A stretch of DNA of 11,422 nucleotides, from UHGV virus genome UHGV-2155131; one strand, given 5' to 3'. A model generated the notes under the pieces. That model was not told the origin of the DNA. It saw only the letters and a program-made list of their open reading frames with translations, and ran no database searches. Each line of letters starts with the position of its first letter. Position 1 is the stretch's first letter. A program made the translations under genes and the position numbers. The DNA is from a virus. Shown here piece after piece: positions 2,053 to 11,422 of the stretch.

Positions 2053-2460
2053 TCAGATGGTTTTCAGTATGCGATCGATGTCGCCGTCATCGCCCTGGTT
2101 TNNNNNNNNNNNNNNNNNNNNNNNNNNNNNNNNNNNNNNNNNNNNNNNNNNNNNNNNNNNNNNNNNNNNNNNNNNNNNNNNNNNNNNNNNNNNNNNNNGC
2201 TCTATGGTCATGTTCAGGATTTCACGAGCATTATCGACGCTAATACATGGCACGTTTGCCATTGCACGTAACAGCGGCTGATAGTCTTTATGCTCATGAA
2301 GCGCCATAATCGCATCAGCGCGCGGCTTGTCCTGCTCTTCCAGTTTGTTTAGTTGATATACGGCCTCATAGGTTGATAAACCTCTGTCAGCCATTGCCCG
2401 CGCTTCGGCTTTAAATTTACTCGCCAGCGGTAGCGTCATGATGCTTTCATTCGTTGCCAT
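2053..2460 (-). CDS. Hypothetical protein, last gene of capsid operon; reading frame spans an assembly gap
   Basis: Start at 2460 with a GGGGG motif and TAA-coupled spacing after the decoration gene. N-terminal 87 aa are real sequence. The C-terminal 15 aa and the terminator placement suggest the gene ends at 2053, but frame continuity across the N run is unverifiable. Confidence 0.45.
   Translation of the reverse strand: MATNESIMTLPLASKFKAEARAMADRGLSTYEAVYQLNKLEEQDKPRADAIMALHEHKDYQPLLRAMANVPCISVDNAREILNMTIEXXXXXXXXXXXXXXXXXXXXXXXXXXXXXXXXXNQGDDGDIDRILKTI
2102..2198. other. Assembly gap (97 N)
   Basis: Literal run of n in the sequence. Confidence 0.95.
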
Positions 2461-5445: not shown

Positions 5446-5458
5446 CTTTTACAAAAAA

Positions 5459-7207
5459 TTATAAAAACGCGTCACAATCATCAGTTGTAATTGCGTTGGT
5501 CTGCGTTACTCCCTTAACTCTCCGCGTAATATATTCATGTCCGTAAACTTTTGCCGCTGGCTTCATGGCCTTGCTGAACTCAGCCACGTTTAGCGGTTTG
5601 CTCCTGCCTGCGTATGCCATAAACGCCAGATAGACGCGGTAAAGGCTGTTTCTGGTCGTGTACTTCACGGAATCGCCACCGCCACCCATCATCAGGCCGC
5701 GAGCTTCCTCCAGAAAATTCAGGAACTGGCAAAACTCAATAACCGGATCCGTCTGTTGCTTTATCGCCAGTGCTTCATCACCGTCGCGCTGTTCCAGTAA
5801 TAAAGCCCGTGCCTTTTCAGGGTCGGCAAAATTAGCCAGCAAGCGACGGATAATTACGGGGATTTCAGCCGCGACCTTCTCCGGCAAATCCTTGTCTTTT
5901 TCGTCCTCCCTTACAATGTTGTCGAACCGGAAAATCACCCGACGGCGTGACACACCTCCGGCCCGCTCGGTGAATATCATCGGGTTATTGTTGGTAGCCA
6001 GCACCACCGCCCTGATTACCGCCGTAAAACGCTTCTCATATTTCGGGTTTATTTCCACTGGGTCGCCGCCCGTGATTTTCTTGATGCCCGTTCCTTCGCC
6101 TGTATATTTCGGCTGGTCAGCCAGGACGATAAGACGACTCCCGACAACCTGCGCACGTCCACCAGCATCATCAAGTGAGGTCATTTCAGCGCTTACCGTG
6201 TTCTGTTTCCCTGCCAGAAGGCTGGCTATGTGCGTGAATGTACTTTTACCGCTACCGCCCTCTCCGGTGGCCTCAATAAACATCTGCCAGTCGTACCGGT
6301 TCGCCATAATCATGTACAGCGCGGCACATATACGCATCATCTTGCGCGGGTCTTTTCCGGCTGCGTGCTCAAGCCATTTATGAAAGTTTGGCGCGTTGTC
6401 GCAGATATTCTCCCCTGGTGCTGGTGGCGTGTACTCAATGCCGTTGTGCGTGGTGATCCAGTTCTCCGGCGTGTGCGGGGAAAATTCCCCCGTTTTCAGG
6501 TCAAGCGCACCATTGGCGAACGGCAGCAAATCGCCGGACGGCTCCCCCATTGGTTCGGCAATAACTTTTAACGCTTCAACGGCGTTATTGATCACGCGTT
6601 TGCTAAAAGTGGCCCTGTGCTCTGAATAGATCGCCACCATTTCGCGGCTAAGTTCCATTGTGCTGACCGGACACCATACCCCGCCGCGCCATACGTGAAC
6701 GATTTCACTTTCCGGATGCACACAAACGCCATCAAATCGACCAGCAAGCATCTGTGCGCGCTCACTGTCTGCCATTTGTGCCAGTTGCGTATTTTTCTGC
6801 TCCGGCATGGTAAGCCCTGCGGCAATATTTTCACGCTCAGCATTCAGATAGCGCCGCCAGTTTTCACACTTCTGGACGTGCATTCCTTCGGGGTAAAAAT
6901 TTGCGTCCTGAATATCTGCCGCCGCCAGCTTCTGACCAATCTTTTTGGTCTCCACCAAATCCAGTTCTCCGGCCTGGTACAGCCTTACGCGTTTTTTTCC
7001 ATCCGGAACAATTTTCAGTGCATCAAGTTCGGCAAGCTGATTTGGCCCAAGCCACACAGGCGGCACATTATCGCCGGATGCGGGGCCATCCTGCTCCTGC
7101 CATTGTTTCGCGTGCGACCAGGCATCACTACCCGCGAAAATAATTACCTCTGTGTCTTTGTGTTTTATTCCGCGTGGCTGTTTTTTTACGTTCGGTGCCA
7201 GTTTCAT
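5459..7207 (-). CDS. P4-alpha-like primase / SF3 helicase replication protein
   Basis: 582 aa. Walker A motif GEGGSGKST mid-protein with a D5_N-like upstream region, typical of phage/plasmid primase P4-family C-terminal domains. GGGG motif before ATG; ATGA overlap with the upstream gene. Confidence 0.85.
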   Translation of the reverse strand: MKLAPNVKKQPRGIKHKDTEVIIFAGSDAWSHAKQWQEQDGPASGDNVPPVWLGPNQLAELDALKIVPDGKKRVRLYQAGELDLVETKKIGQKLAAADIQDANFYPEGMHVQKCENWRRYLNAERENIAAGLTMPEQKNTQLAQMADSERAQMLAGRFDGVCVHPESEIVHVWRGGVWCPVSTMELSREMVAIYSEHRATFSKRVINNAVEALKVIAEPMGEPSGDLLPFANGALDLKTGEFSPHTPENWITTHNGIEYTPPAPGENICDNAPNFHKWLEHAAGKDPRKMMRICAALYMIMANRYDWQMFIEATGEGGSGKSTFTHIASLLAGKQNTVSAEMTSLDDAGGRAQVVGSRLIVLADQPKYTGEGTGIKKITGGDPVEINPKYEKRFTAVIRAVVLATNNNPMIFTERAGGVSRRRVIFRFDNIVREDEKDKDLPEKVAAEIPVIIRRLLANFADPEKARALLLEQRDGDEALAIKQQTDPVIEFCQFLNFLEEARGLMMGGGGDSVKYTTRNSLYRVYLAFMAYAGRSKPLNVAEFSKAMKPAAKVYGHEYITRRVKGVTQTNAITTDDCDAFL

Positions 7208-7503
7208 TTTTTACCCCTGAATACGTTAAGCATCTTTTTTATTTCCTGAATATTGGCGCGTGCTTTCTCCCTGCTGGTGGGCACGTTACGCGGTACGGCC
7301 TGCACCAGAGAAAAATCACGATCGAACTGATAAACAGGCATCACGCAATCATATTCGTAGCCTTCACGACGGTAGGTTACGCGCCGTTCCTCCACGCCCT
7401 TAATCATTACCGTGCCGCCGTACTGGTCGCGGTAAATATCACCGCGCATGAATTTAGTGCGAGTTTTGCCACTGGCAGTTAAGCCAGAATATTTAAGTTT
7501 CAT
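7204..7503 (-). CDS. Hypothetical protein (99 aa), translationally coupled to primase
   Basis: ATG at 7503 with GGAG upstream. Stop overlaps the primase start. Confidence 0.5.
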   Translation of the reverse strand: MKLKYSGLTASGKTRTKFMRGDIYRDQYGGTVMIKGVEERRVTYRREGYEYDCVMPVYQFDRDFSLVQAVPRNVPTSREKARANIQEIKKMLNVFRGKK

Positions 7504-7508
7504 TATTT

Positions 7509-7739
7509 TTATTCTCCGGTGTGGGGCGCTTTATTATTCTCGTGAATTGCCATAGCCTTATTGAGTTCATCAATAACAGGTGTCAATAATGTCTGAACAG
7601 CGGCAAACATTAATGATGAATGATCTTCGCCACCTTCCGGCACTTCAATTAATTTAATTAATAACGCATTCATTTCGCGTGCTTTAATTAATGCGTTTTC
7701 AGAGTGGATTAATACTTCAAAAGGGATTTTATGCATCAC
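7509..7739 (-). CDS. Small hypothetical protein (about 75 aa) in a low-GC segment
   Basis: GGGAG Shine-Dalgarno motif before a GTG (7739) / ATG (7736) start. Helical, acidic composition. Confidence 0.5.
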   Translation of the reverse strand: MMHKIPFEVLIHSENALIKAREMNALLIKLIEVPEGGEDHSSLMFAAVQTLLTPVIDELNKAMAIHENNKAPHTGE

Positions 7740-7959
7740 AAATTTTCTCCCTTATTCTTTTAATGTCCTCATTAAGGATGTCTGTAACTTTTATCAGCGA
7801 GTTTTTGGCAATTATTTTTATTGTTTTAAGTTTTCTTTTGTCGTGCTCCGACTGTGATTTTCTTTCCATAATCTCCACCATGTGGGTAACATCAACGAGC
7901 GCACGTATCAGTATTTGCATTGCTTCTTCTGCTGCGTCCGGACGGGTGTTATTGCACAT
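7729..7959 (-). CDS. Small hypothetical protein (76 aa) in a low-GC segment
   Basis: Strong AGGAGG Shine-Dalgarno motif 6 nt before ATG 7959. 11-nt overlap with the downstream gene. Confidence 0.55.
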   Translation of the reverse strand: MCNNTRPDAAEEAMQILIRALVDVTHMVEIMERKSQSEHDKRKLKTIKIIAKNSLIKVTDILNEDIKRIREKICDA

Positions 7960-8155
7960 GGCACACCTCCTGACGAATACGGGCAGCGAATACCATCACG
8001 CAGCCAGCCGGGGATTGCTGGCGTGCTTCCTGTTCGCTGGTGGCCTCGATGGTAATCACGCGCGGTTGTGCCGTGCTCAGGGCGATAAAACGCCAGATGT
8101 ATTTATTCAGGTCGTGCGAGTCCCGCCCTTGCGGGTGTGTGGTATGATTTCTCAT
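7949..8155 (-). CDS. Small hypothetical protein (68 aa), probable first gene of the leftward replication operon
   Basis: Internal ATG at 8155 with GAGG 6 nt upstream. Protein-like translation (MRNHTTHPQGRDSHDLNKYIWRFIALS...). Same frame as the long 439-codon ORF. Confidence 0.4.
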   Translation of the reverse strand: MRNHTTHPQGRDSHDLNKYIWRFIALSTAQPRVITIEATSEQEARQQSPAGCVMVFAARIRQEVCHVQ

Positions 8156-9268
8156 AGCTGCCTCGATACTTTCGCTATCGTTGGTGGTTAGAAGCCCGGT
8201 TAGTGTTAGCGCACTGCCGGGTTTCGTCGTTTCTGCACCTTGCGCCAACAAGGTGTTGAACACCAATTTAAACCCAGGTGTTAAACACGTCAAGTGTTGA
8301 ACACTTATTTTTTTTCCTGCATACTGCATTTGTTTTTTATGAGGGGTACACCACATGGCGACAAAAGCAGTAAACGCAAAATCACAAACCGTTGCGGCAA
8401 GGGTTCCGCATGAAGTTATGAACAATGTTGAGGCGGTAAAAATGCCTGGCGAAAGTACGGGGCAATTTGTTACTGCGGCATTAAAACGAGAAGTTGAATA
8501 TCGCCAGCGGCGCAAGGCCAGTGAATCCGAGAAATCATTAATCACGTCATAACATGAAGAACGATGGCGATAATCATAGGAGTAAAAGATGTTAAAATTA
8601 AAAAAACATGTACCAATGATGGTTGCTTTAATTATCACAATCTTTCTCTTAATATCATGCTTTGAGAAAAATAGTCTTTGCTCAAACGATAAGGGCGATT
8701 TATTACGGCGTGCTTGCGATGTAGAGTTGAAAAAAAGTTGAGCACTACCTAACCGAGACAATGCCGTAGTTCCTGTAATCACAGGATCGCTCAGGCTTTG
8801 CCCACCAGCCGCAAATATGGCATTGTTGGCAATGCTCATGCGTTGGGGATAACGTGTAGCTTGTGTCGAGGGGCCACCGTAGCGGGTGGCCTTTGTTTTG
8901 CCCGTTATTCGGCAATTGTGGCGCTTCTCCACATGGTTGATATAATCCCACTGCTCAGATTCATTTTTTGCGCAGTAGGTTAATTGTTCACAAAGGCGCT
9001 CCGGCAACGGGGCGCTTTTTGTTTTTATTAGTTTGTAGAAACCTGACTCAGAGATAATGCTCATATTCTGATTGCCGTCAGGGGTGTAAGTTAAATTTAC
9101 TCCCTTTTTATCATCAAACATCTGCAACGCTCTGGCGTTAACAATATTGGTTTCACTCCCGCCAGTAAGGCCGGAAATAACCGGAATAATTTCGGCAAAA
9201 TTTTGCAGATTCTGTTTTTCAGGACGAACGAAGCCCCGCCCTTGTTCGGGAGAATATCCAGTATTCAT
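7949..9268 (-). CDS. Bro-N domain (antirepressor-like) protein; only the N-terminal ~175 aa (about 8745..9268) is recognisable and the 3' extent is uncertain
   Basis: DGNQNMSIISESGFYKLI...LPERL matches the Bro-N core motif (NMNIINESGLYSLI). The frame then runs stop-free for about 800 nt through low-complexity translation, antisense to the RHH gene and the operators. Confidence 0.45.
   Translation of the reverse strand: MNTGYSPEQGRGFVRPEKQNLQNFAEIIPVISGLTGGSETNIVNARALQMFDDKKGVNLTYTPDGNQNMSIISESGFYKLIKTKSAPLPERLCEQLTYCAKNESEQWDYINHVEKRHNCRITGKTKATRYGGPSTQATRYPQRMSIANNAIFAAGGQSLSDPVITGTTALSRLGSAQLFFNSTSQARRNKSPLSFEQRLFFSKHDIKRKIVIIKATIIGTCFFNFNIFYSYDYRHRSSCYDVINDFSDSLALRRWRYSTSRFNAAVTNCPVLSPGIFTASTLFITSCGTLAATVCDFAFTAFVAMWCTPHKKQMQYAGKKISVQHLTCLTPGFKLVFNTLLAQGAETTKPGSALTLTGLLTTNDSESIEAAMRNHTTHPQGRDSHDLNKYIWRFIALSTAQPRVITIEATSEQEARQQSPAGCVMVFAARIRQEVCHVQ
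8253..8304. promoter_or_regulatory. Three operator-like inverted repeats GTGTTNAACAC within divergent promoters
   Basis: Copies at 8253..8263, 8278..8288 and 8294..8304. Rightward promoter candidate: -35 TTGAAC (8297..8302) and -10 CATACT (8320..8325). Leftward candidate: -35 TTGACG (complement of 8288..8293) and -10 TAAATT (complement of 8265..8270). Confidence 0.5.
8355..8552 (+). CDS. Ribbon-helix-helix-like small DNA-binding protein (putative island repressor/regulator)
   Basis: GAGGGG Shine-Dalgarno motif 8 nt before ATG. N-terminal beta-strand with alternating hydrophobics (TVAARVPHEV) followed by two helices, as in Arc/CopG-type proteins. Diverges from the operator region. Confidence 0.5.
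   Translation: MATKAVNAKSQTVAARVPHEVMNNVEAVKMPGESTGQFVTAALKREVEYRQRRKASESEKSLITS
8589..8666 (+). CDS. Candidate 25-aa cationic/hydrophobic peptide (MLKLKKHVPMMVALIITNLSLNIML) downstream of the RHH gene
   Basis: Canonical AGGAG 6 nt upstream of ATG. Below the ORF-track size cutoff. Composition resembles small membrane peptides. Translated by hand. Confidence 0.25.
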
Positions 9269-9320
9269 GGTTAGATCTCTGTATTAGTGGATGGGTGGCG
9301 GCTGTGTGCCGCCAGCCTGA

Positions 9321-9509
9321 TTAGTGAACTGCCTCGCAGCTGTCCTTCCATGCCAGAACTTCGGATAAAGACCAGCCAACGGAACGACCGCCCAGCTTAC
9401 GCCGTGATGGGAATTGTCCGGCTTTTTCCAGGCGGTACCGACATGAGCGGCTCAGGCCTGTAAGTTGCTGACATTCTTTTTCACGTATAAAGCGATCTGT
9501 GCTTAACAC
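9321..9509 (-). CDS. alpA: AlpA-family phage transcriptional regulator / excisionase-like protein
   Basis: 62 aa with the LxxxxRSVGWxxSEVxxW signature of AlpA-type winged-helix proteins. Located between int and the rest of the island, as in PICIs and P4-like elements. Confidence 0.8.
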   Translation of the reverse strand: MLSTDRFIREKECQQLTGLSRSCRYRLEKAGQFPSRRKLGGRSVGWSLSEVLAWKDSCEAVH

Positions 9510-9790
9510 AATTCCCCCTTTGTTGTTTCTTAAAGAGTCATTGGGTGGATTATTGGGTTGGGTTGTGTCGGATTGTGTCAGGGTGTTTGTGGAATGGCAA
9601 ACACTGGCGGCGGTCGTTTTACAGAAGCAGGGGGAATGAGAATAAAAACTCTTTTAATTCATTATGATGCAAAGGCATAAAATTTTACTTTTACGCCTTT
9701 TTTACATATTTTTAAGAGTGATTCGCCAGTGTATAAAAAAACAGTACACCTATAAAAATCAAATGGTTATTACGATGGCTGATTTTTAAC

Positions 9791-9850
9791 CCGTTGTTCC
9801 ATTTTGTTCCTTGTTGTTCGTCGTTGTGTCTCGTTGTTTCACGTTGTCCG
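9791..9850. repeat. Six tandem 10-bp repeats (NCGTTGTNYC) just 3' of int, in the alpA upstream region
   Basis: ccgttgttcc / attttgttcc / ttgttgttcg / tcgttgtgtc / tcgttgtttc / acgttgtccg in helical phase. Confidence 0.5.
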
Positions 9851-9874
9851 CATCCTGAAAAATCGCAAAAAAAA

Positions 9875-11125
9875 TTATATTTCTCTGGCTATTGGCAATG
9901 TGGTTACGTTTTCATGTGTTCCCGCCAGTATCCCTAACCGCTCCGTCCACATATCCAGCGCGTCACGTTTCGCATCCAGATAACGGGAATGGTTATAGAC
10001 TCGTTGCATCCCTGGCATCTGATGACCTGTAAGCTGCTCCACGACGTGAGGATCCACGCCTAAATCGTTCAGCATCGTTGTAAAGGTGCGCCGGATGTCA
10101 TGCAGTGACCAGTGAGGGTGTTTTAGCCTCCTGTGCGCTAATCTACCGTACTGCGACACGCTTGTTTCCTGTTTCACTTCCCCCAGCAATAAGCCCGTGT
10201 GCCTGTTCTGCTCCACCAGCTGCGTGACGAACGGCAGTATTGCTTCCGGTATGGGCCGGAATATTGCCACCTTCGTTTTGCTGTGTTCTTTCGGCACGGT
10301 CCAGAGCATTTCGGTAAAATCCCACTCGCTGATCTCCGATAACCTCAGTTCTACCGTCCGGCATCCGAAAACAATCAGGAGGCGGATTAGTGCGACGTAG
10401 TAAGGGGAAAATATTTTTTTGTCCAGTGCCTGCAATAATTCGCCAAGTTCTTTGGTGCTTAAGACACGCTCGCTTATATCCGGTTTTTTCCCAACGTCCG
10501 CCACACTCATATCATCAAGAACGTTGCTGATTGCATAGCGCCGCCTCCGGCAGAACTTAAGCGCCTGTTTGCACGTCTGTAGCAAGAATCCGGCAGTAAC
10601 AGGCGTTCGCTTTGCCACCTGGTCAAAACAGGCCAGCCAGTGCCGTAGCTCGCATTTATCCAGCGGCATAGCACCAATGTGCTGTATTACGTGATTATTA
10701 AGGCGCTTTTTCAGGGCGGCATAATCCACGCGGTTTTCCTTTGCGTACGACTCAAGCCAGTAGGTGAGCGCATCGCCAACCGTTACCGGCTTTAACGCTT
10801 CCTGTACGGTGTAATTAAGCTCATGACGTGGATTTTTCCCCTCTGCCAGCCATGCGCGACACTGGGCGGCTTTTTCCCTGGCTGATTTCAGGCTCAGATC
10901 AGGATAATTTCCCAGCTTAATGCGTTCCGGTGGTGCCCCCCTTCCCGTTCCGGCCCTGTAAGTGAAATACCAGGTTAAAAGGCCACTGGTTGAATGCCTG
11001 ACGCTCAGGTTTCCACCGTCATTAAGAAAGGCTGTTTTTTGGGCGGGTGTGCCGTTGATTTTCCTCAGCTGTGTATCGCTCAGTTTGTTAAGTGCTCTGC
11101 TCATAATTTTGATTCCGGTCATCAC
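9875..11125 (-). CDS. int: P4-family tyrosine integrase
   Basis: About 410 aa. N-terminal arm-binding-like region (LSDTQLRK...GGNLSVRHSTSG...WYFTYR) and C-terminal catalytic region with an HxxRRT-like motif (LHDIRRTF). The 11125 start is GTG; ATG alternatives at 11122 and 11104. Confidence 0.9.
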   Translation of the reverse strand: MMTGIKIMSRALNKLSDTQLRKINGTPAQKTAFLNDGGNLSVRHSTSGLLTWYFTYRAGTGRGAPPERIKLGNYPDLSLKSAREKAAQCRAWLAEGKNPRHELNYTVQEALKPVTVGDALTYWLESYAKENRVDYAALKKRLNNHVIQHIGAMPLDKCELRHWLACFDQVAKRTPVTAGFLLQTCKQALKFCRRRRYAISNVLDDMSVADVGKKPDISERVLSTKELGELLQALDKKIFSPYYVALIRLLIVFGCRTVELRLSEISEWDFTEMLWTVPKEHSKTKVAIFRPIPEAILPFVTQLVEQNRHTGLLLGEVKQETSVSQYGRLAHRRLKHPHWSLHDIRRTFTTMLNDLGVDPHVVEQLTGHQMPGMQRVYNHSRYLDAKRDALDMWTERLGILAGTHENVTTLPIAREI

Positions 11126-11151
11126 AATTAACTACACCATTAACTACACCG
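11126..11151. repeat. Right copy of 26-bp direct repeat; putative attR core, immediately upstream of the integrase start
   Basis: Exact match to 147..172. P4-family integrases classically have their att core just upstream of int. Confidence 0.7.
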
Positions 11152-11352
11152 ATCGTTGCACAAAGGGCTACAACGTGAAACAAGCTGGAACAAGGAAAAT
11201 CACAAATCTGTTTATAATCAAAAACATAATGAACAATCTGAAACATTATGAAACGGCAAAAAACACTAATTGATAAAATATGCCCATACTTCACGCATTA
11301 CGTTAAGCATCCGTTATAATCGGTTGCAGATACCAGCCTGTGGATGCTTAAC

Positions 11353-11422
11353 ATGGAATACCAACTCACTCTTAACTGGCCCGATTTTCTTGAACGTCAC
11401 TGGCAGAAACGCCCGGTGGTGT
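11353..11422 (+). CDS. roxA: 5' end of a chromosomal roxA (ycfD)-like gene, partial
   Basis: Translation MEYQLTLNWPDFLERHWQKRPVV matches my memory of the E. coli YcfD/RoxA N-terminus. Lies outside the right direct repeat. Confidence 0.55.
   Translation, partial: MEYQLTLNWPDFLERHWQKRPVV

What the first reader, a model, noticed from the sequence alone, without database searches (positions are those of the whole stretch)
7949..9268. Anomalous 439-codon stop-free frame behind a Bro-N domain, antisense to the RHH gene and operators
Only the first ~175 residues look like a protein (Bro-N domain). The remainder translates as low-complexity sequence, yet the frame stays open for about 800 nt through an AT-rich stretch, the operator region and the opposite-strand RHH gene, ending in a plausible 68-aa gene with its own Shine-Dalgarno sequence. 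Possible explanations are a homopolymer indel error (A7/T7 runs near 8600 and 8735), a genuine long fusion protein, or selection on the opposite strand.
Basis: seen in the sequence. Interest (0 to 1): 0.45.

Follow-up and report, generated by a model that had tools for sequence, protein, structure and literature searches.

The report
Satellite's long stop-free translated leader ORF
The odd 439-codon reading frame is real and is kept open by selection: it matches the layout of the 'eta/kil' nested genes of satellite phage P4, where translating a long, otherwise meaningless frame lets transcription run through the island's immunity region to its replication genes.

Summary
The ORF (7949..9268, minus strand, 439 codons) is real and not due to chance. 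No stop occurs in 376 codons upstream of the nested 68-aa gene. The other five frames carry 14-29 stops, and 0 of 2000 shuffles match this. The last 68 codons encode an Icd-like protein, the same family as P4 Kil. In P4, kil is the 3' end of a longer in-frame ORF, eta. According to the P4 literature, eta translation stops premature termination of late transcripts.

The same long in-frame run upstream of icd-like genes occurs in 8 of 9 other species. It also occurs in 101 of 116 distinct metagenome or viral loci, even where the middle modules are unrelated. Outside icd the frame shows no amino-acid constraint (pN/pS 0.8-1.0).

Only about 40 residues are Bro-N-like, not 175. A roughly 442-nt deletion joined a decayed Bro-N gene to the frame. 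No homopolymer indel exists.

Unlike P4, there is no CI/C4 RNA. Instead there is an opposite-strand YlcI/YnfO gene, three operators, and a candidate cis-antisense small RNA over the icd ribosome-binding site.

Verdict: a new variant of a known kind. The architecture is well supported; the mechanism is inferred by analogy.

The parts
9572..9600 (-). Promoter-like site upstream of alpA (TTGCCA-17-CACAAT with TG). Candidate counterpart of P4's late promoter PLL.
   Evidence: Consensus scan only. Function not shown.
9321..9509 (-). AlpA-family regulator/excisionase gene. It is the counterpart of P4 vis, which precedes eta.
   Evidence: Pfam Phage_AlpA, E 3e-18. Its position matches that of P4 ORF88/vis.
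7949..9268 (-). Long eta-like ORF of 439 codons. It consists of a Bro-N remnant, then a sequence-unconstrained open frame, then the nested Icd/Kil-like gene.
   Evidence: (0/2000 shuffles).
9026..9148 (-). The only part with real Bro-N/antirepressor homology (residues ~41-81). The junction with the open frame lies at about 9027.
   Evidence: tblastn with intact Bro-N proteins of L003/L005. Pfam hit below threshold. PHROG antirepressor hits at residues 49-88. Window 9026-9130 matches L003 4005-4112, and window 7965-9027 matches L003 2501-3562.
8992..9029 (+). Intrinsic terminator of the plus-strand (YlcI) transcription unit. In the long frame it reads as the conserved 'KTKSAPLPER'.
   Evidence: Terminator scan: 12-pair stem plus T-run. 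The motif is conserved at the start of the open frame in relatives.
8589..8741 (+). 50-aa ORF with a lipoprotein-like signal (LLISC). It is 87 aa in L003 because window TGA 8739-8741 is TGG there. No evidence of purifying selection.
   Evidence: pN/pS about 1 against L005. No family hit.
8355..8552 (+). YlcI/YnfO-family gene, presumed to be a small DNA-binding repressor, embedded antisense in the long frame. Third codon positions of the two genes coincide.
   Evidence: NCBIfam NF041551, 59 bits. phrog_949. Phase. Fold not confirmed.
8251..8304 (.). Three operator-like copies of the palindrome GTGTT-N-AACAC. They cover back-to-back promoters.
   Evidence: the repeat finder family D1 and pair I1.
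8265..8293 (-). Promoter-like site inside the long ORF (TTGACG-17-TAAATT) that would drive the short icd transcript. Counterpart of P4's PLE.
   Evidence: Consensus scan. It overlaps the operators. Function inferred.
8140..8233 (+). Candidate cis-antisense small RNA. Elements: extended -10 TGGTATGAT (8140-8148); predicted start near 8153-8156; stem-loop at 8163-8179; terminator hairpin at 8191-8226 with a T-rich tail. It is fully complementary to the icd Shine-Dalgarno sequence and start codon.
   Evidence: Weak Rfam symR-like hit (29.8 bits, below the gathering score of 61). 83 distinct relatives keep the hairpin with different sequences. 10 pairs show compensatory changes and many are G-U pairs.
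7949..8155 (-). Nested Icd/Kil-like gene of 68 aa with its own Shine-Dalgarno sequence. Under purifying selection.
   Evidence: NF033153, E 1.5e-19. P4 Kil hits the same model at E 1.6e-21. pN/pS 0.20 over 98 distinct sequences.
5459..7959 (-). Downstream genes, tightly packed or overlapping: 7729-7959, 7509-7739, DUF4222 at 7204-7503, and primase at 5459-7207. This is the operon whose expression the long ORF is proposed to permit.
   Evidence: ORF coordinates show overlaps of 11, 11 and 4 nt. Pfam DUF4222, D5_N and DUF5906.

Best explanation
The 439-codon frame is the counterpart, in this phage-inducible island, of the nested eta/kil genes of satellite phage P4.

The proposed mechanism has three parts:
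- The short product is an Icd/Kil-like protein of 68 aa. It is made from a promoter inside the long ORF. That promoter sits under three operators, next to a divergent YlcI/YnfO gene.
- The long ORF is read only when transcription comes from upstream, from the alpA promoter. Ribosomes then load at the start codon of the Bro-N remnant, just after alpA. They translate without interruption through the convergent terminator, the opposite-strand genes, the operators and the icd leader, and on into the overlapping downstream genes up to the primase.
- Continuous translation keeps the ~1.3-kb antisense-running transcript covered. This is proposed to prevent Rho-dependent termination, and perhaps antisense-RNA action at the icd ribosome-binding site. 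Induced transcription would thus bypass the immunity region.

On this reading, selection acts on the absence of stop codons, not on the encoded amino acids. In this window a ~442-nt deletion fused a decayed Bro-N gene in frame to the pre-existing open frame.

What is shown: the architecture, its conservation, the lack of amino-acid constraint, and the homology of the short gene with P4 Kil.

What is inferred by analogy with P4: that the frame is translated, and that translation prevents termination.
For: (1) Non-random openness. The icd frame has 0 stops in 376 codons, the other five frames have 14-29, and 0 of 2000 shuffles reach this.

(2) Conservation across unrelated sequence.
- The run is 435, 359, 653 and 366 codons in four E. 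coli relatives. This holds although window 8538-8794 is replaced by an unrelated 230 nt in NCTC86, and although RM10410 has about 900 extra nt.
- It is 193-310 codons in 8 of 9 other species, against 0-40 in the other two frames.
- The median is 271 codons in 116 distinct metagenome or viral loci, and 101 of these reach at least 150.
- The exceptions look like one or two nonsense or frameshift changes in an otherwise open frame.

(3) No amino-acid constraint outside icd. pN/pS is 0.79 for 8855-9025 and 1.0 for 8156-8353, with variable sites spread evenly over codon positions. For icd it is 0.20.

(4) The P4 precedent.
- P4 ORF 8168..8812 holds eta. Its start codons ATGATGATG overlap the vis stop codon, and its last 65 codons are Kil.
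- P4 Kil and the window's 68-aa gene both hit NF033153. Both long ORFs share phrog_1743 and phrog_29966.
- PMC10111431, section 20 (citing Forti et al. [quoted passage not shown]

(5) Coupling. In 8 of 8 species loci a start codon of the long frame (ATG or GTG) overlaps the stop of the upstream same-strand gene or lies within about 10 nt of it. That gene is an AntA/ANT antirepressor or an HTH_17 gene.

(6) Same gene order as P4: alpA/vis, then the long ORF with nested icd/kil, then small ORFs, then primase. The downstream genes overlap.
Against: - No direct evidence of translation or of Rho-dependent termination exists for this island.
- The window's ATG at 9268 lies 52 nt after alpA and has only a weak Shine-Dalgarno sequence.
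- In E. coli relatives with an intact Bro-N gene (L003-L005), the open frame starts 136-150 nt after the Bro-N stop, with no convincing start codon. How ribosomes would enter there is unexplained.
- The P4 hallmarks CI/C4 RNA, seqA/isrK and the Phage_ASH region are absent, although they are found in the P4 control.
- The long regions of P4 eta and of this ORF share no detectable sequence similarity outside Kil/Icd.
- AlpA-type regulators may provide antitermination by another route (own knowledge).
- The Forti 1999 paper itself could not be read.
Confidence: 0.65

Rival explanations
1. The ORF encodes a genuine multi-domain 'Bro-network' fusion protein (Bro-N, an unknown middle, then Icd), and its amino-acid sequence is functional along its whole length.
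For: - Gene callers and NCBI annotate hundreds of 350-550 aa 'Icd-like proteins' from this frame. One, P0034, is seen on at least 1000 contigs.
- PMC10111431 treats P4 eta as a Bro-network protein gene.
- Start codons are coupled to upstream genes.
Against: - pN/pS is about 0.8-1.0, with no codon-position bias in the parts not overlapped by other genes.
- Unrelated modules substitute for one another.
- There are no Pfam, NCBIfam or PHROG hits between residue ~92 and ~347.
- The Bro-N part lacks about 20 core residues and the whole C-terminal half.
- Much of the apparent conservation lies where the other strand encodes YlcI, an RNA hairpin or a terminator.
Confidence: 0.12
2. The frame is kept open by translation, but the benefit is not protection from Rho. 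Ribosomes instead shield the transcript from pairing with the convergent plus-strand RNAs and the cis-antisense small RNA (RNase III cleavage or translational block), or they dislodge the repressor or colliding polymerases.
For: - A convergent plus-strand unit runs from about 8330 to the terminator at 8992-9029.
- A candidate antisense small RNA lies exactly over the icd ribosome-binding site, with covariation support.
- The whole long ORF is antisense to these.
Against: - No expression data exist.
- P4 genetics points to Rho-dependent termination (as summarised in PMC10111431).
- The two mechanisms are not exclusive.
Confidence: 0.15
3. The open frame is a passive by-product of coding or composition on the opposite strand.
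For: - The YlcI-like gene is always in the phase where third codon positions coincide (8 of 8 species loci; 33 of 33 ORFs).
- This phase is relatively permissive. Redrawing synonymous codons leaves it open with probability 0.09-0.68 per allele.
- The antisense frame in this phase also mimics low pN/pS (icd r1 = 0.25).
Against: - Plus-strand ORFs cover less than half of the run.
- Each plus-strand frame has 14-23 stops, and the other two minus-strand frames have 24-29.
- Segments with no ORF on either strand (8156-8354 and 8853-9027) are also stop-free, in 19 of 19 and 18 of 19 distinct relatives.
Confidence: 0.04
4. The ORF is an artefact or an accident: a sequencing indel in a homopolymer, or a recent meaningless pseudogene fusion.
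For: - A7 runs are present.
- NCBI annotates the Bro-N part of the near-identical NCTC86 locus as a pseudogene missing its C-terminus.
- The Bro-N part is indeed a deletion remnant.
Against: - There is no indel relative to independent complete genomes or to GCA_054495925.1.
- The frame is open in relatives that have an intact, separate Bro-N gene and in other genera.
Confidence: 0.04

Closest known systems
Nested genes eta and kil of satellite phage P4 (Forti et al. 1999, J Bacteriol 181:5225, PMID 10464191; summarised in PMC10111431)
   Same: - The short C-terminal product belongs to the same family, NF033153 Icd-like.
- It is the 3' end of a much longer in-frame ORF that begins upstream of an internal promoter.
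- The long ORF follows the alpA/vis gene and precedes the primase operon on the same strand.
- The long part has no recognisable protein character.
- In relatives, the long-frame start overlaps the upstream stop as in P4.
   Different: - The open run is two to three times longer (376-586 codons upstream of icd, against 152 in P4).
- There is no CI/C4 RNA, seqA/isrK or Phage_ASH segment.
- Instead the frame runs antisense through a YlcI/YnfO gene, further plus-strand ORFs and their terminator, plus operators and a candidate cis-antisense small RNA.
- Here it is also fused to a Bro-N remnant.
- Termination control has not been tested.
Phage P1 immI region (c4 antisense RNA, icd, ant) and Gifsy-1 isrK-orf45-anrP
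   Same: A small Icd-type or leader ORF must be translated for downstream genes to be transcribed, and an antisense RNA controls its ribosome-binding site. Basis: own knowledge for P1; PMC4825925 for IsrK and the P4 comparison.
   Different: Those systems use trans-acting C4- or IsrK-type RNAs encoded on the same strand upstream. Rfam finds none here. They have no long upstream in-frame ORF overlapping an opposite-strand gene.
'Bro zone' of Gram-negative phage-inducible chromosomal islands and helper-embedded islands (PMC10111431)
   Same: The four-zone order is the same: int/alpA, Bro zone, primase, late genes. Here the late genes are capsid E, decoration protein D and PerC. That paper notes that Bro-zone genes such as P4 eta host regulatory activities.
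   Different: That work treats these ORFs as domain-swapping proteins. It reports CI/seqA homologues in some islands. In what I read, it does not describe the sequence-unconstrained open frame, the embedded opposite-strand YlcI gene or the antisense RNA candidate.
SymE/SymR-type (type I) toxin control by a cis-antisense RNA
   Same: A roughly 75-nt structured RNA is encoded opposite the 5' UTR, Shine-Dalgarno sequence and start codon of a small growth-inhibiting protein gene. Rfam's best hit is symR.
   Different: The score is half the gathering threshold. The similarity rests on one of at least nine hairpin variants. No expression data exist, and Icd is unrelated to SymE.

Membership tests
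P4 eta/kil nested-gene architecture | The short distal gene is a Kil/Icd-like protein | tested here: met
   Window 68 aa: NF033153, 69.8 bits. P4 Kil: 76.1 bits.
P4 eta/kil nested-gene architecture | A longer ORF in the same frame extends upstream past the short gene's own promoter | tested here: met
   376 stop-free codons lie upstream. However, the internal promoter is only a consensus match, at 8265-8293.
P4 eta/kil nested-gene architecture | The long ORF follows the alpA/vis gene and is translationally coupled to an upstream gene | tested here: inconclusive
   Window: ATG lies 52 nt after the alpA stop, with a weak Shine-Dalgarno sequence. Relatives: a start codon (ATG or GTG) overlaps or lies within about 10 nt of the upstream stop in 8 of 8 loci. 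P4: ATGATGATG overlaps the vis stop.
P4 eta/kil nested-gene architecture | Lies upstream of, and on the same strand as, the replication (primase) operon | tested here: met
   compared with P4.
P4 eta/kil nested-gene architecture | CI (C4) immunity RNA and its seqA/seqC targets lie inside the long ORF | tested here: not met
   No C4, isrK or c4-a1b1 hit at E <= 10 in 7900-9350. All three are found in the P4 control. There is no Phage_ASH domain (compared).
P4 eta/kil nested-gene architecture | Translation of the long ORF prevents Rho-dependent termination, and nonsense mutations are polar | not testable with these tools
   Needs genetics or transcriptomics. The only indirect evidence is selection against stops.
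Bro-N domain proteins (Pfam PF02498) | A complete Bro-N domain above the curated score | tested here: not met
   15 bits against a cut-off of 25.6, covering profile positions 37-85 of 96 only. About 20 core residues are missing relative to P0022. The C-terminal half is deleted.
Icd-like host cell division inhibitors (NCBIfam NF033153) | Match to the 48-position domain model above the cut-off | tested here: met
   66-70 bits against a cut-off of 25. The cell-division inhibition activity itself was not tested.
YlcI/YnfO family (NCBIfam NF041551 / DUF3950) | Match above the cut-off | tested here: met
   59.2 bits against a cut-off of 30. A relative hits DUF3950.
Ribbon-helix-helix repressors | A strand-helix-helix fold, or a profile match to an RHH family | tested here: inconclusive
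   - No Pfam RHH hit for the window protein.
- No PDB sequence hit.
- A single-sequence model (pLDDT 73) shows two helices after an N-terminal segment.
- Foldseek finds no match.
- A relative has only sub-threshold Arc, HicB-like and NikA hits.
SymR antisense RNA (Rfam RF01809) | Score at or above the gathering threshold | tested here: not met
   29.8 bits against 61.

The most novel reading that the evidence does not exclude
The long 'Icd-like proteins' of enterobacterial phage-inducible islands are not proteins in the usual sense. They are sequence-free 'ribosome tracks' of up to about 650 codons, selected only to lack stop codons. These tracks carry induced transcription antisense through a complete immunity module: a YlcI/YnfO repressor gene in a fixed codon phase, its operators and terminator, and a previously undescribed cis-antisense small RNA that silences the Icd/Kil toxin. 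Translation of the track would override all of these at once. The Pfam 'Ash' family would likewise be the translated shadow of the CI/C4 RNA region.
Probability: 0.4. Interest if true: 0.65.

Novelty: new variant of a known kind. Interest (0 to 1): 0.5.

Why it matters
If correct, this has four consequences.

- It explains a very common annotation oddity. Hundreds of 350-550 aa 'Icd-like proteins', Bro-N 'pseudogenes' and overlapping YlcI genes in E. coli and its relatives are annotated inconsistently, even between assemblies of the same strain.
- It extends a regulatory principle to a large class of phage-inducible islands across Enterobacterales. The principle is that translation of a long, meaningless ORF acts as an anti-termination, immunity-bypass device. 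So far it has been shown experimentally only for P4.
- It gives a clean natural example of selection on the absence of stops without selection on the amino acids, and of a gene kept in a fixed phase inside an antisense ORF.
- It makes island induction control directly testable, using stop-codon insertions, Rho inhibition, and detection of the predicted ~75-nt antisense RNA.

Tried and rejected
- **Homopolymer indel.** Rejected by gapless identity to independent genomes.
- **Chance.** Rejected by shuffles and by stop counts in the other five frames.
- **Opposite-strand by-product.** Rejected because the non-coding segments are open too.
- **CI/C4-type immunity RNA in the window.** Searched twice with Rfam, with P4 as a positive control. 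None found.
- **Sequence similarity between this ORF and P4 eta beyond Kil/Icd.** None seen.
- **Ribbon-helix-helix fold of YlcI.** PDB sequence search, a single-sequence AlphaFold model, Foldseek and Pfam on relatives all gave nothing significant.
- **C-rich, G-poor Rho-loading signature on the minus-strand RNA.** The composition profile was not informative.
- **Profile-based locus search with a divergent Icd/Kil alignment.** The single-protein search was used instead.
- **Reading Forti et al. 1999.** The paper is not held. Its content is taken from PMC10111431 and my own knowledge.
- **Synonymous-codon redraw test inside YlcI**. It gives a joint probability of about 3e-4 over 8 alleles. It is partly circular, because only loci with open frames were sampled, so I give it little weight.
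- **Global pairwise dN/dS against L004**. It is unreliable where modules are not homologous. The gapless-segment analysis is preferred.
Full report
**1. Observation**

The ORF listing gives an ATG-to-stop ORF of 439 codons at 7949..9268 on the minus strand. Stop-to-stop it spans 7949..9283, 444 codons. It crosses four features:
- a 65-aa plus-strand gene at 8355..8552;
- a 50-aa plus-strand ORF at 8589..8741;
- an AT-rich stretch (GC 0.29 at 8555-8690);
- three 13-nt repeats, AGGTGTTGAACAC, at 8251-8304.

The 376 codons upstream of the internal ATG at 8155 contain no stop. The other five frames of the same DNA carry 14-29 stops. None of 2000 dinucleotide-preserving shuffles gives a run this long.

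**2. What the parts are**

- *The last 68 codons.* With their own GAGG Shine-Dalgarno sequence, they match NCBIfam NF033153, 'host cell division inhibitor Icd-like' (E 1.5e-19).
- *The opposite-strand gene.* It is a YlcI/YnfO family member (NF041551, E 2.9e-16). Its ribbon-helix-helix fold is plausible from the sequence pattern. It was not confirmed by Pfam, PDB sequence search, a single-sequence model or Foldseek.
Pfam Bro-N scores 15 bits (cut-off 25.6) over residues 52-91. Intact Bro-N proteins from related islands align only with window 9026-9148.
- *The surroundings.* They identify a Gram-negative phage-inducible chromosomal island: integrase, AlpA, this region, DUF4222, a D5_N/DUF5906 primase, PerC, lambda-type capsid E and decoration protein D.

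**3. Origin of the fusion, and no sequencing error**

Window 7965-9027 is 96.7% identical to E. coli AREA_492 (L003 2501-3562). Window 9026-9130 continues at L003 4005-4112. The ~442 nt that the window lacks hold the C-terminal half of an intact 192-aa Bro-N gene and its 3' spacer. A deletion therefore joined a Bro-N remnant to what lies downstream.

Between 8025 and 8830 the window and L003 differ by a single SNP and no gap. That SNP is at 8741: TGA in the window, TGG in L003, which lengthens the plus-strand ORF to 87 aa. NCTC86 assemblies match 7919-8537 at 97.4% and 8795-9600 at 99.6%, but carry an unrelated 230 nt in place of 8538-8794. GCA_054495925.1 holds window 5449-11422 with one mismatch. 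The A7 runs are therefore not indel errors.

**4. The key result: the frame was already open, everywhere**

In relatives that keep a separate, intact Bro-N gene, the frame that ends in icd is still open for 359 (L003), 653 (L004) and 366 (L005) codons. It begins 136-150 nt after the Bro-N stop. In NCTC86, with its unrelated middle module, the run is 435 codons.

Loci were then found through the Icd domain alone, so they are unbiased by gene calling:
- In 8 of 9 species the in-frame upstream run is 193-310 codons, against 0-40 in the other two frames. The species are Escherichia ruysiae, Cedecea, Enterobacter, Rahnella, Rosenbergiella, Superficieibacter, Intestinirhabdus and Tenebrionibacter. 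Edwardsiella is the exception, with 5 codons.
- Shuffle tests give 0-1 of 2000 for each of these loci.
- In 116 distinct upstream sequences from metagenomes and viral contigs the median is 271 codons. 101 of them have at least 150.
- The short cases look like one or two nonsense changes, or a frameshift, in an otherwise open frame.

The protein database holds 1707 relatives of the 439-aa translation. Many are annotated as 350-550 aa 'Icd-like proteins', and one is seen on at least 1000 contigs.

**5. Openness is conserved, amino acids are not**

The analysis used gapless homologous segments from all loci.

| Segment | pN/pS in the long frame | Variable sites at codon positions 1/2/3 | Distinct sequences with a stop |
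|---|---|---|---|
| icd | 0.20 | 22/18/32 | 1 of 98 |
| 8855-9025 | 0.79 | 12/13/12 | 0 of 19 |
| 8156-8353 | 1.0 | 15/11/12 | 1 of 19 |

In 8855-9025 all six frames score 0.69-0.89. Against L005, the segment opposite the 50/87-aa ORF gives 1.48 in the long frame and 1.06 in the plus-strand ORF frame. No family model hits residues ~92-347.

The YlcI-like gene always lies in the phase where the third codon positions of the two strands coincide (8 of 8 species loci; 33 of 33 ORFs). In that phase each frame mimics the other's low pN/pS (icd control). The overlap region therefore cannot tell the two apart. Synonymous redraws of the YlcI alleles keep the antisense frame open with probability 0.09-0.68 (partly circular, low weight).

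**6. The precedent**

In P4 (NC_001609), the ORF 8168..8812 on the minus strand contains eta. Its three start codons, ATGATGATG, overlap the stop of vis/ORF88, an AlpA-family gene. Its last 65 codons are Kil. P4 Kil hits the same Icd-like model (E 1.6e-21). Both long ORFs share phrog_1743 and phrog_29966 through that part.

PMC10111431, citing Forti et al. 1999, makes four statements:
- a constitutive promoter lies inside eta;
- Kil is the truncated product;
- full-length eta is translated only from the upstream late promoter and is coupled to the alpA homologue;
- eta translation prevents termination, so the late transcript reads through to the downstream genes.

From my own knowledge of the 1999 paper, nonsense mutations in eta caused premature Rho-dependent termination and suppression restored readthrough. 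I could not read the paper itself.

The window has the same order: alpA, the long ORF with nested icd, overlapping small ORFs, then primase. In 8 of 8 species loci a start codon of the long frame (ATG or GTG) overlaps the stop of the preceding AntA/ANT antirepressor or HTH_17 gene, or lies within about 10 nt of it. That is the signature of translational coupling.

**7. How this differs from P4**

Rfam finds C4 (CI RNA), isrK (seqA) and c4-a1b1 inside P4 eta. Pfam Phage_ASH covers exactly that stretch of Eta, residues 22-146. The window has none of these. Instead the frame runs antisense through a plus-strand unit made of:
- a weak promoter candidate that I read by eye (TTGAAC-17-CATACT, 8297-8325), which falls below the scan's threshold;
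- the YlcI gene;
- the 50/87-aa ORF;
- a strong intrinsic terminator at 8992-9029. In the long frame this terminator reads as the conserved 'KTKSAPLPER'.

A promoter-like site for the short icd transcript (8265-8293, minus strand) lies under the operators.

**8. A further element: a candidate antisense RNA**

A further element lies directly opposite the icd Shine-Dalgarno sequence and ATG. Its features are:
- a nearly invariant extended -10 box, TGGTATGAT, at 8140-8148;
- a conserved stem-loop;
- a GC-rich hairpin with a T-rich tail at 8191-8233.

The hairpin occurs in at least nine unrelated sequence versions among 83 distinct relatives. Ten base pairs show compensatory changes. Many pairs are G-U, which fit only this strand. 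Rfam's best, sub-threshold, hit is symR. This looks like a cis-antisense small RNA controlling icd. It could be a functional stand-in for CI/seqC.

**9. Model**

- *Uninduced state.* The repressor-operator module and the antisense RNA keep icd and the replication genes low.
- *Induced state.* Transcription from the alpA promoter is followed by ribosomes that start at the Bro-N remnant. In relatives they start by coupling to the antirepressor gene. They translate without a stop through the whole immunity module and into the overlapping downstream genes.
- *Proposed benefit.* This would protect a 1.3-kb antisense-running RNA from Rho, and possibly from antisense pairing.

Shown here: the anatomy, the conservation, the lack of amino-acid constraint, and homology of the short gene. 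Inferred: translation of the frame and its anti-termination role.

Weak points:
- the 52-nt gap and poor Shine-Dalgarno sequence before the window's ATG;
- the lack of an evident start codon in E. coli islands with an intact Bro-N gene.

**10. Rivals**

- *A functional full-length fusion protein.* Disfavoured by section 5.
- *A by-product of the opposite strand.* Disfavoured by the open non-coding segments.
- *An artefact.* Excluded by section 3.
- *Translation protecting against antisense RNAs or RNase III rather than Rho.* This remains possible and is compatible with the main model.

**11. Novelty and interest**

The principle has been known since 1999 for P4, and was noted for island 'Bro zones' in 2023. 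Three things appear undescribed in the papers I could search:
- the generality, length and sequence-free nature of the frame across Enterobacterales;
- the embedded fixed-phase YlcI gene in place of the CI RNA;
- the antisense RNA candidate.

I rate this a new variant of a known kind, interest 0.5.

Noticed in passing
window 8140-8233 (+): Candidate ~75-nt cis-antisense small RNA lying exactly over the icd Shine-Dalgarno sequence and start codon. It has a nearly invariant extended -10 box (TGGTATGAT) and a conserved first stem-loop. Its terminator hairpin exists in at least 9 unrelated sequence versions with compensatory and G-U pairs. The only Rfam hit is a sub-threshold symR match.
   Followed up: partly
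L006 (P4) 8330-8704; P0002 residues 407-497: The Pfam 'Ash protein family' (PF10554) matches P4 Eta residues 22-146. That is exactly the DNA that encodes the CI/C4 RNA and its seqA/isrK and a1b1 targets. The 'protein family' may therefore owe its conservation to RNA genes read in the eta frame. PHROG labels these hits 'transcriptional repressor', apparently inherited from the old 'cI gene product' annotation of P4.
   Followed up: partly
window 8589-8741 (+); L003 3124-3387: Small ORF with a lipoprotein-type signal (…LLISC…). It is 50 aa here but 87 aa in AREA_492, because of one SNP (TGA/TGG at 8739-8741). It has no family hit and pN/pS of about 1 against L005, so it may not be a real gene.
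   Followed up: partly
L001 and L002 (two assemblies of E. coli NCTC86): The same locus is annotated differently in the two assemblies. The Icd-like protein is 135 aa in one and 68 aa in the other. Both call a Bro-N 'pseudogene, missing C-terminus' that overlaps the YlcI gene and starts at the internal Met69. This illustrates how pipelines mishandle the long frame.
   Followed up: yes
window 8121-8136 (both strands), inside icd codons 7-12: An almost invariant hairpin, CCCGC-CCTT-GCGGG, lies just upstream of the putative small-RNA promoter. The icd N-terminus MRNHTTHPQGRD is conserved at nucleotide level even in Cedecea and Edwardsiella, although it lies outside the Icd domain model. This suggests an RNA- or DNA-level constraint.
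   Followed up: no
L004 (E. coli RM10410) 1023-2984: This is the longest case, with 653 stop-free codons. The frame runs antisense through two YlcI/YnfO genes and a hypothetical gene, all three in the same plus-strand frame.
   Followed up: partly
window ~2100-2210: A run of N (masked or unresolved bases) interrupts the 135-aa ORF 2053..2460 on the minus strand, which translates as a stretch of X.
   Followed up: no
window 9272-9305 (-), between alpA and the long-ORF ATG: A GC-rich hairpin (GGCGGC-ACACA-GCCGCC) lies in the 52-nt spacer. It has no U-run, and its role is unknown. It sits where P4 and other species have overlapping stop and start codons instead.
   Followed up: no
L177 1-212; window end 11422: In GCA_054495925.1 the island's integrase end abuts a chromosomal JmjC/ROXA-type gene, not a prophage capsid gene. 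Although the island carries capsid E, decoration protein D and PerC like the helper-embedded 'capE' islands, this copy appears to be chromosomally integrated.
   Followed up: no
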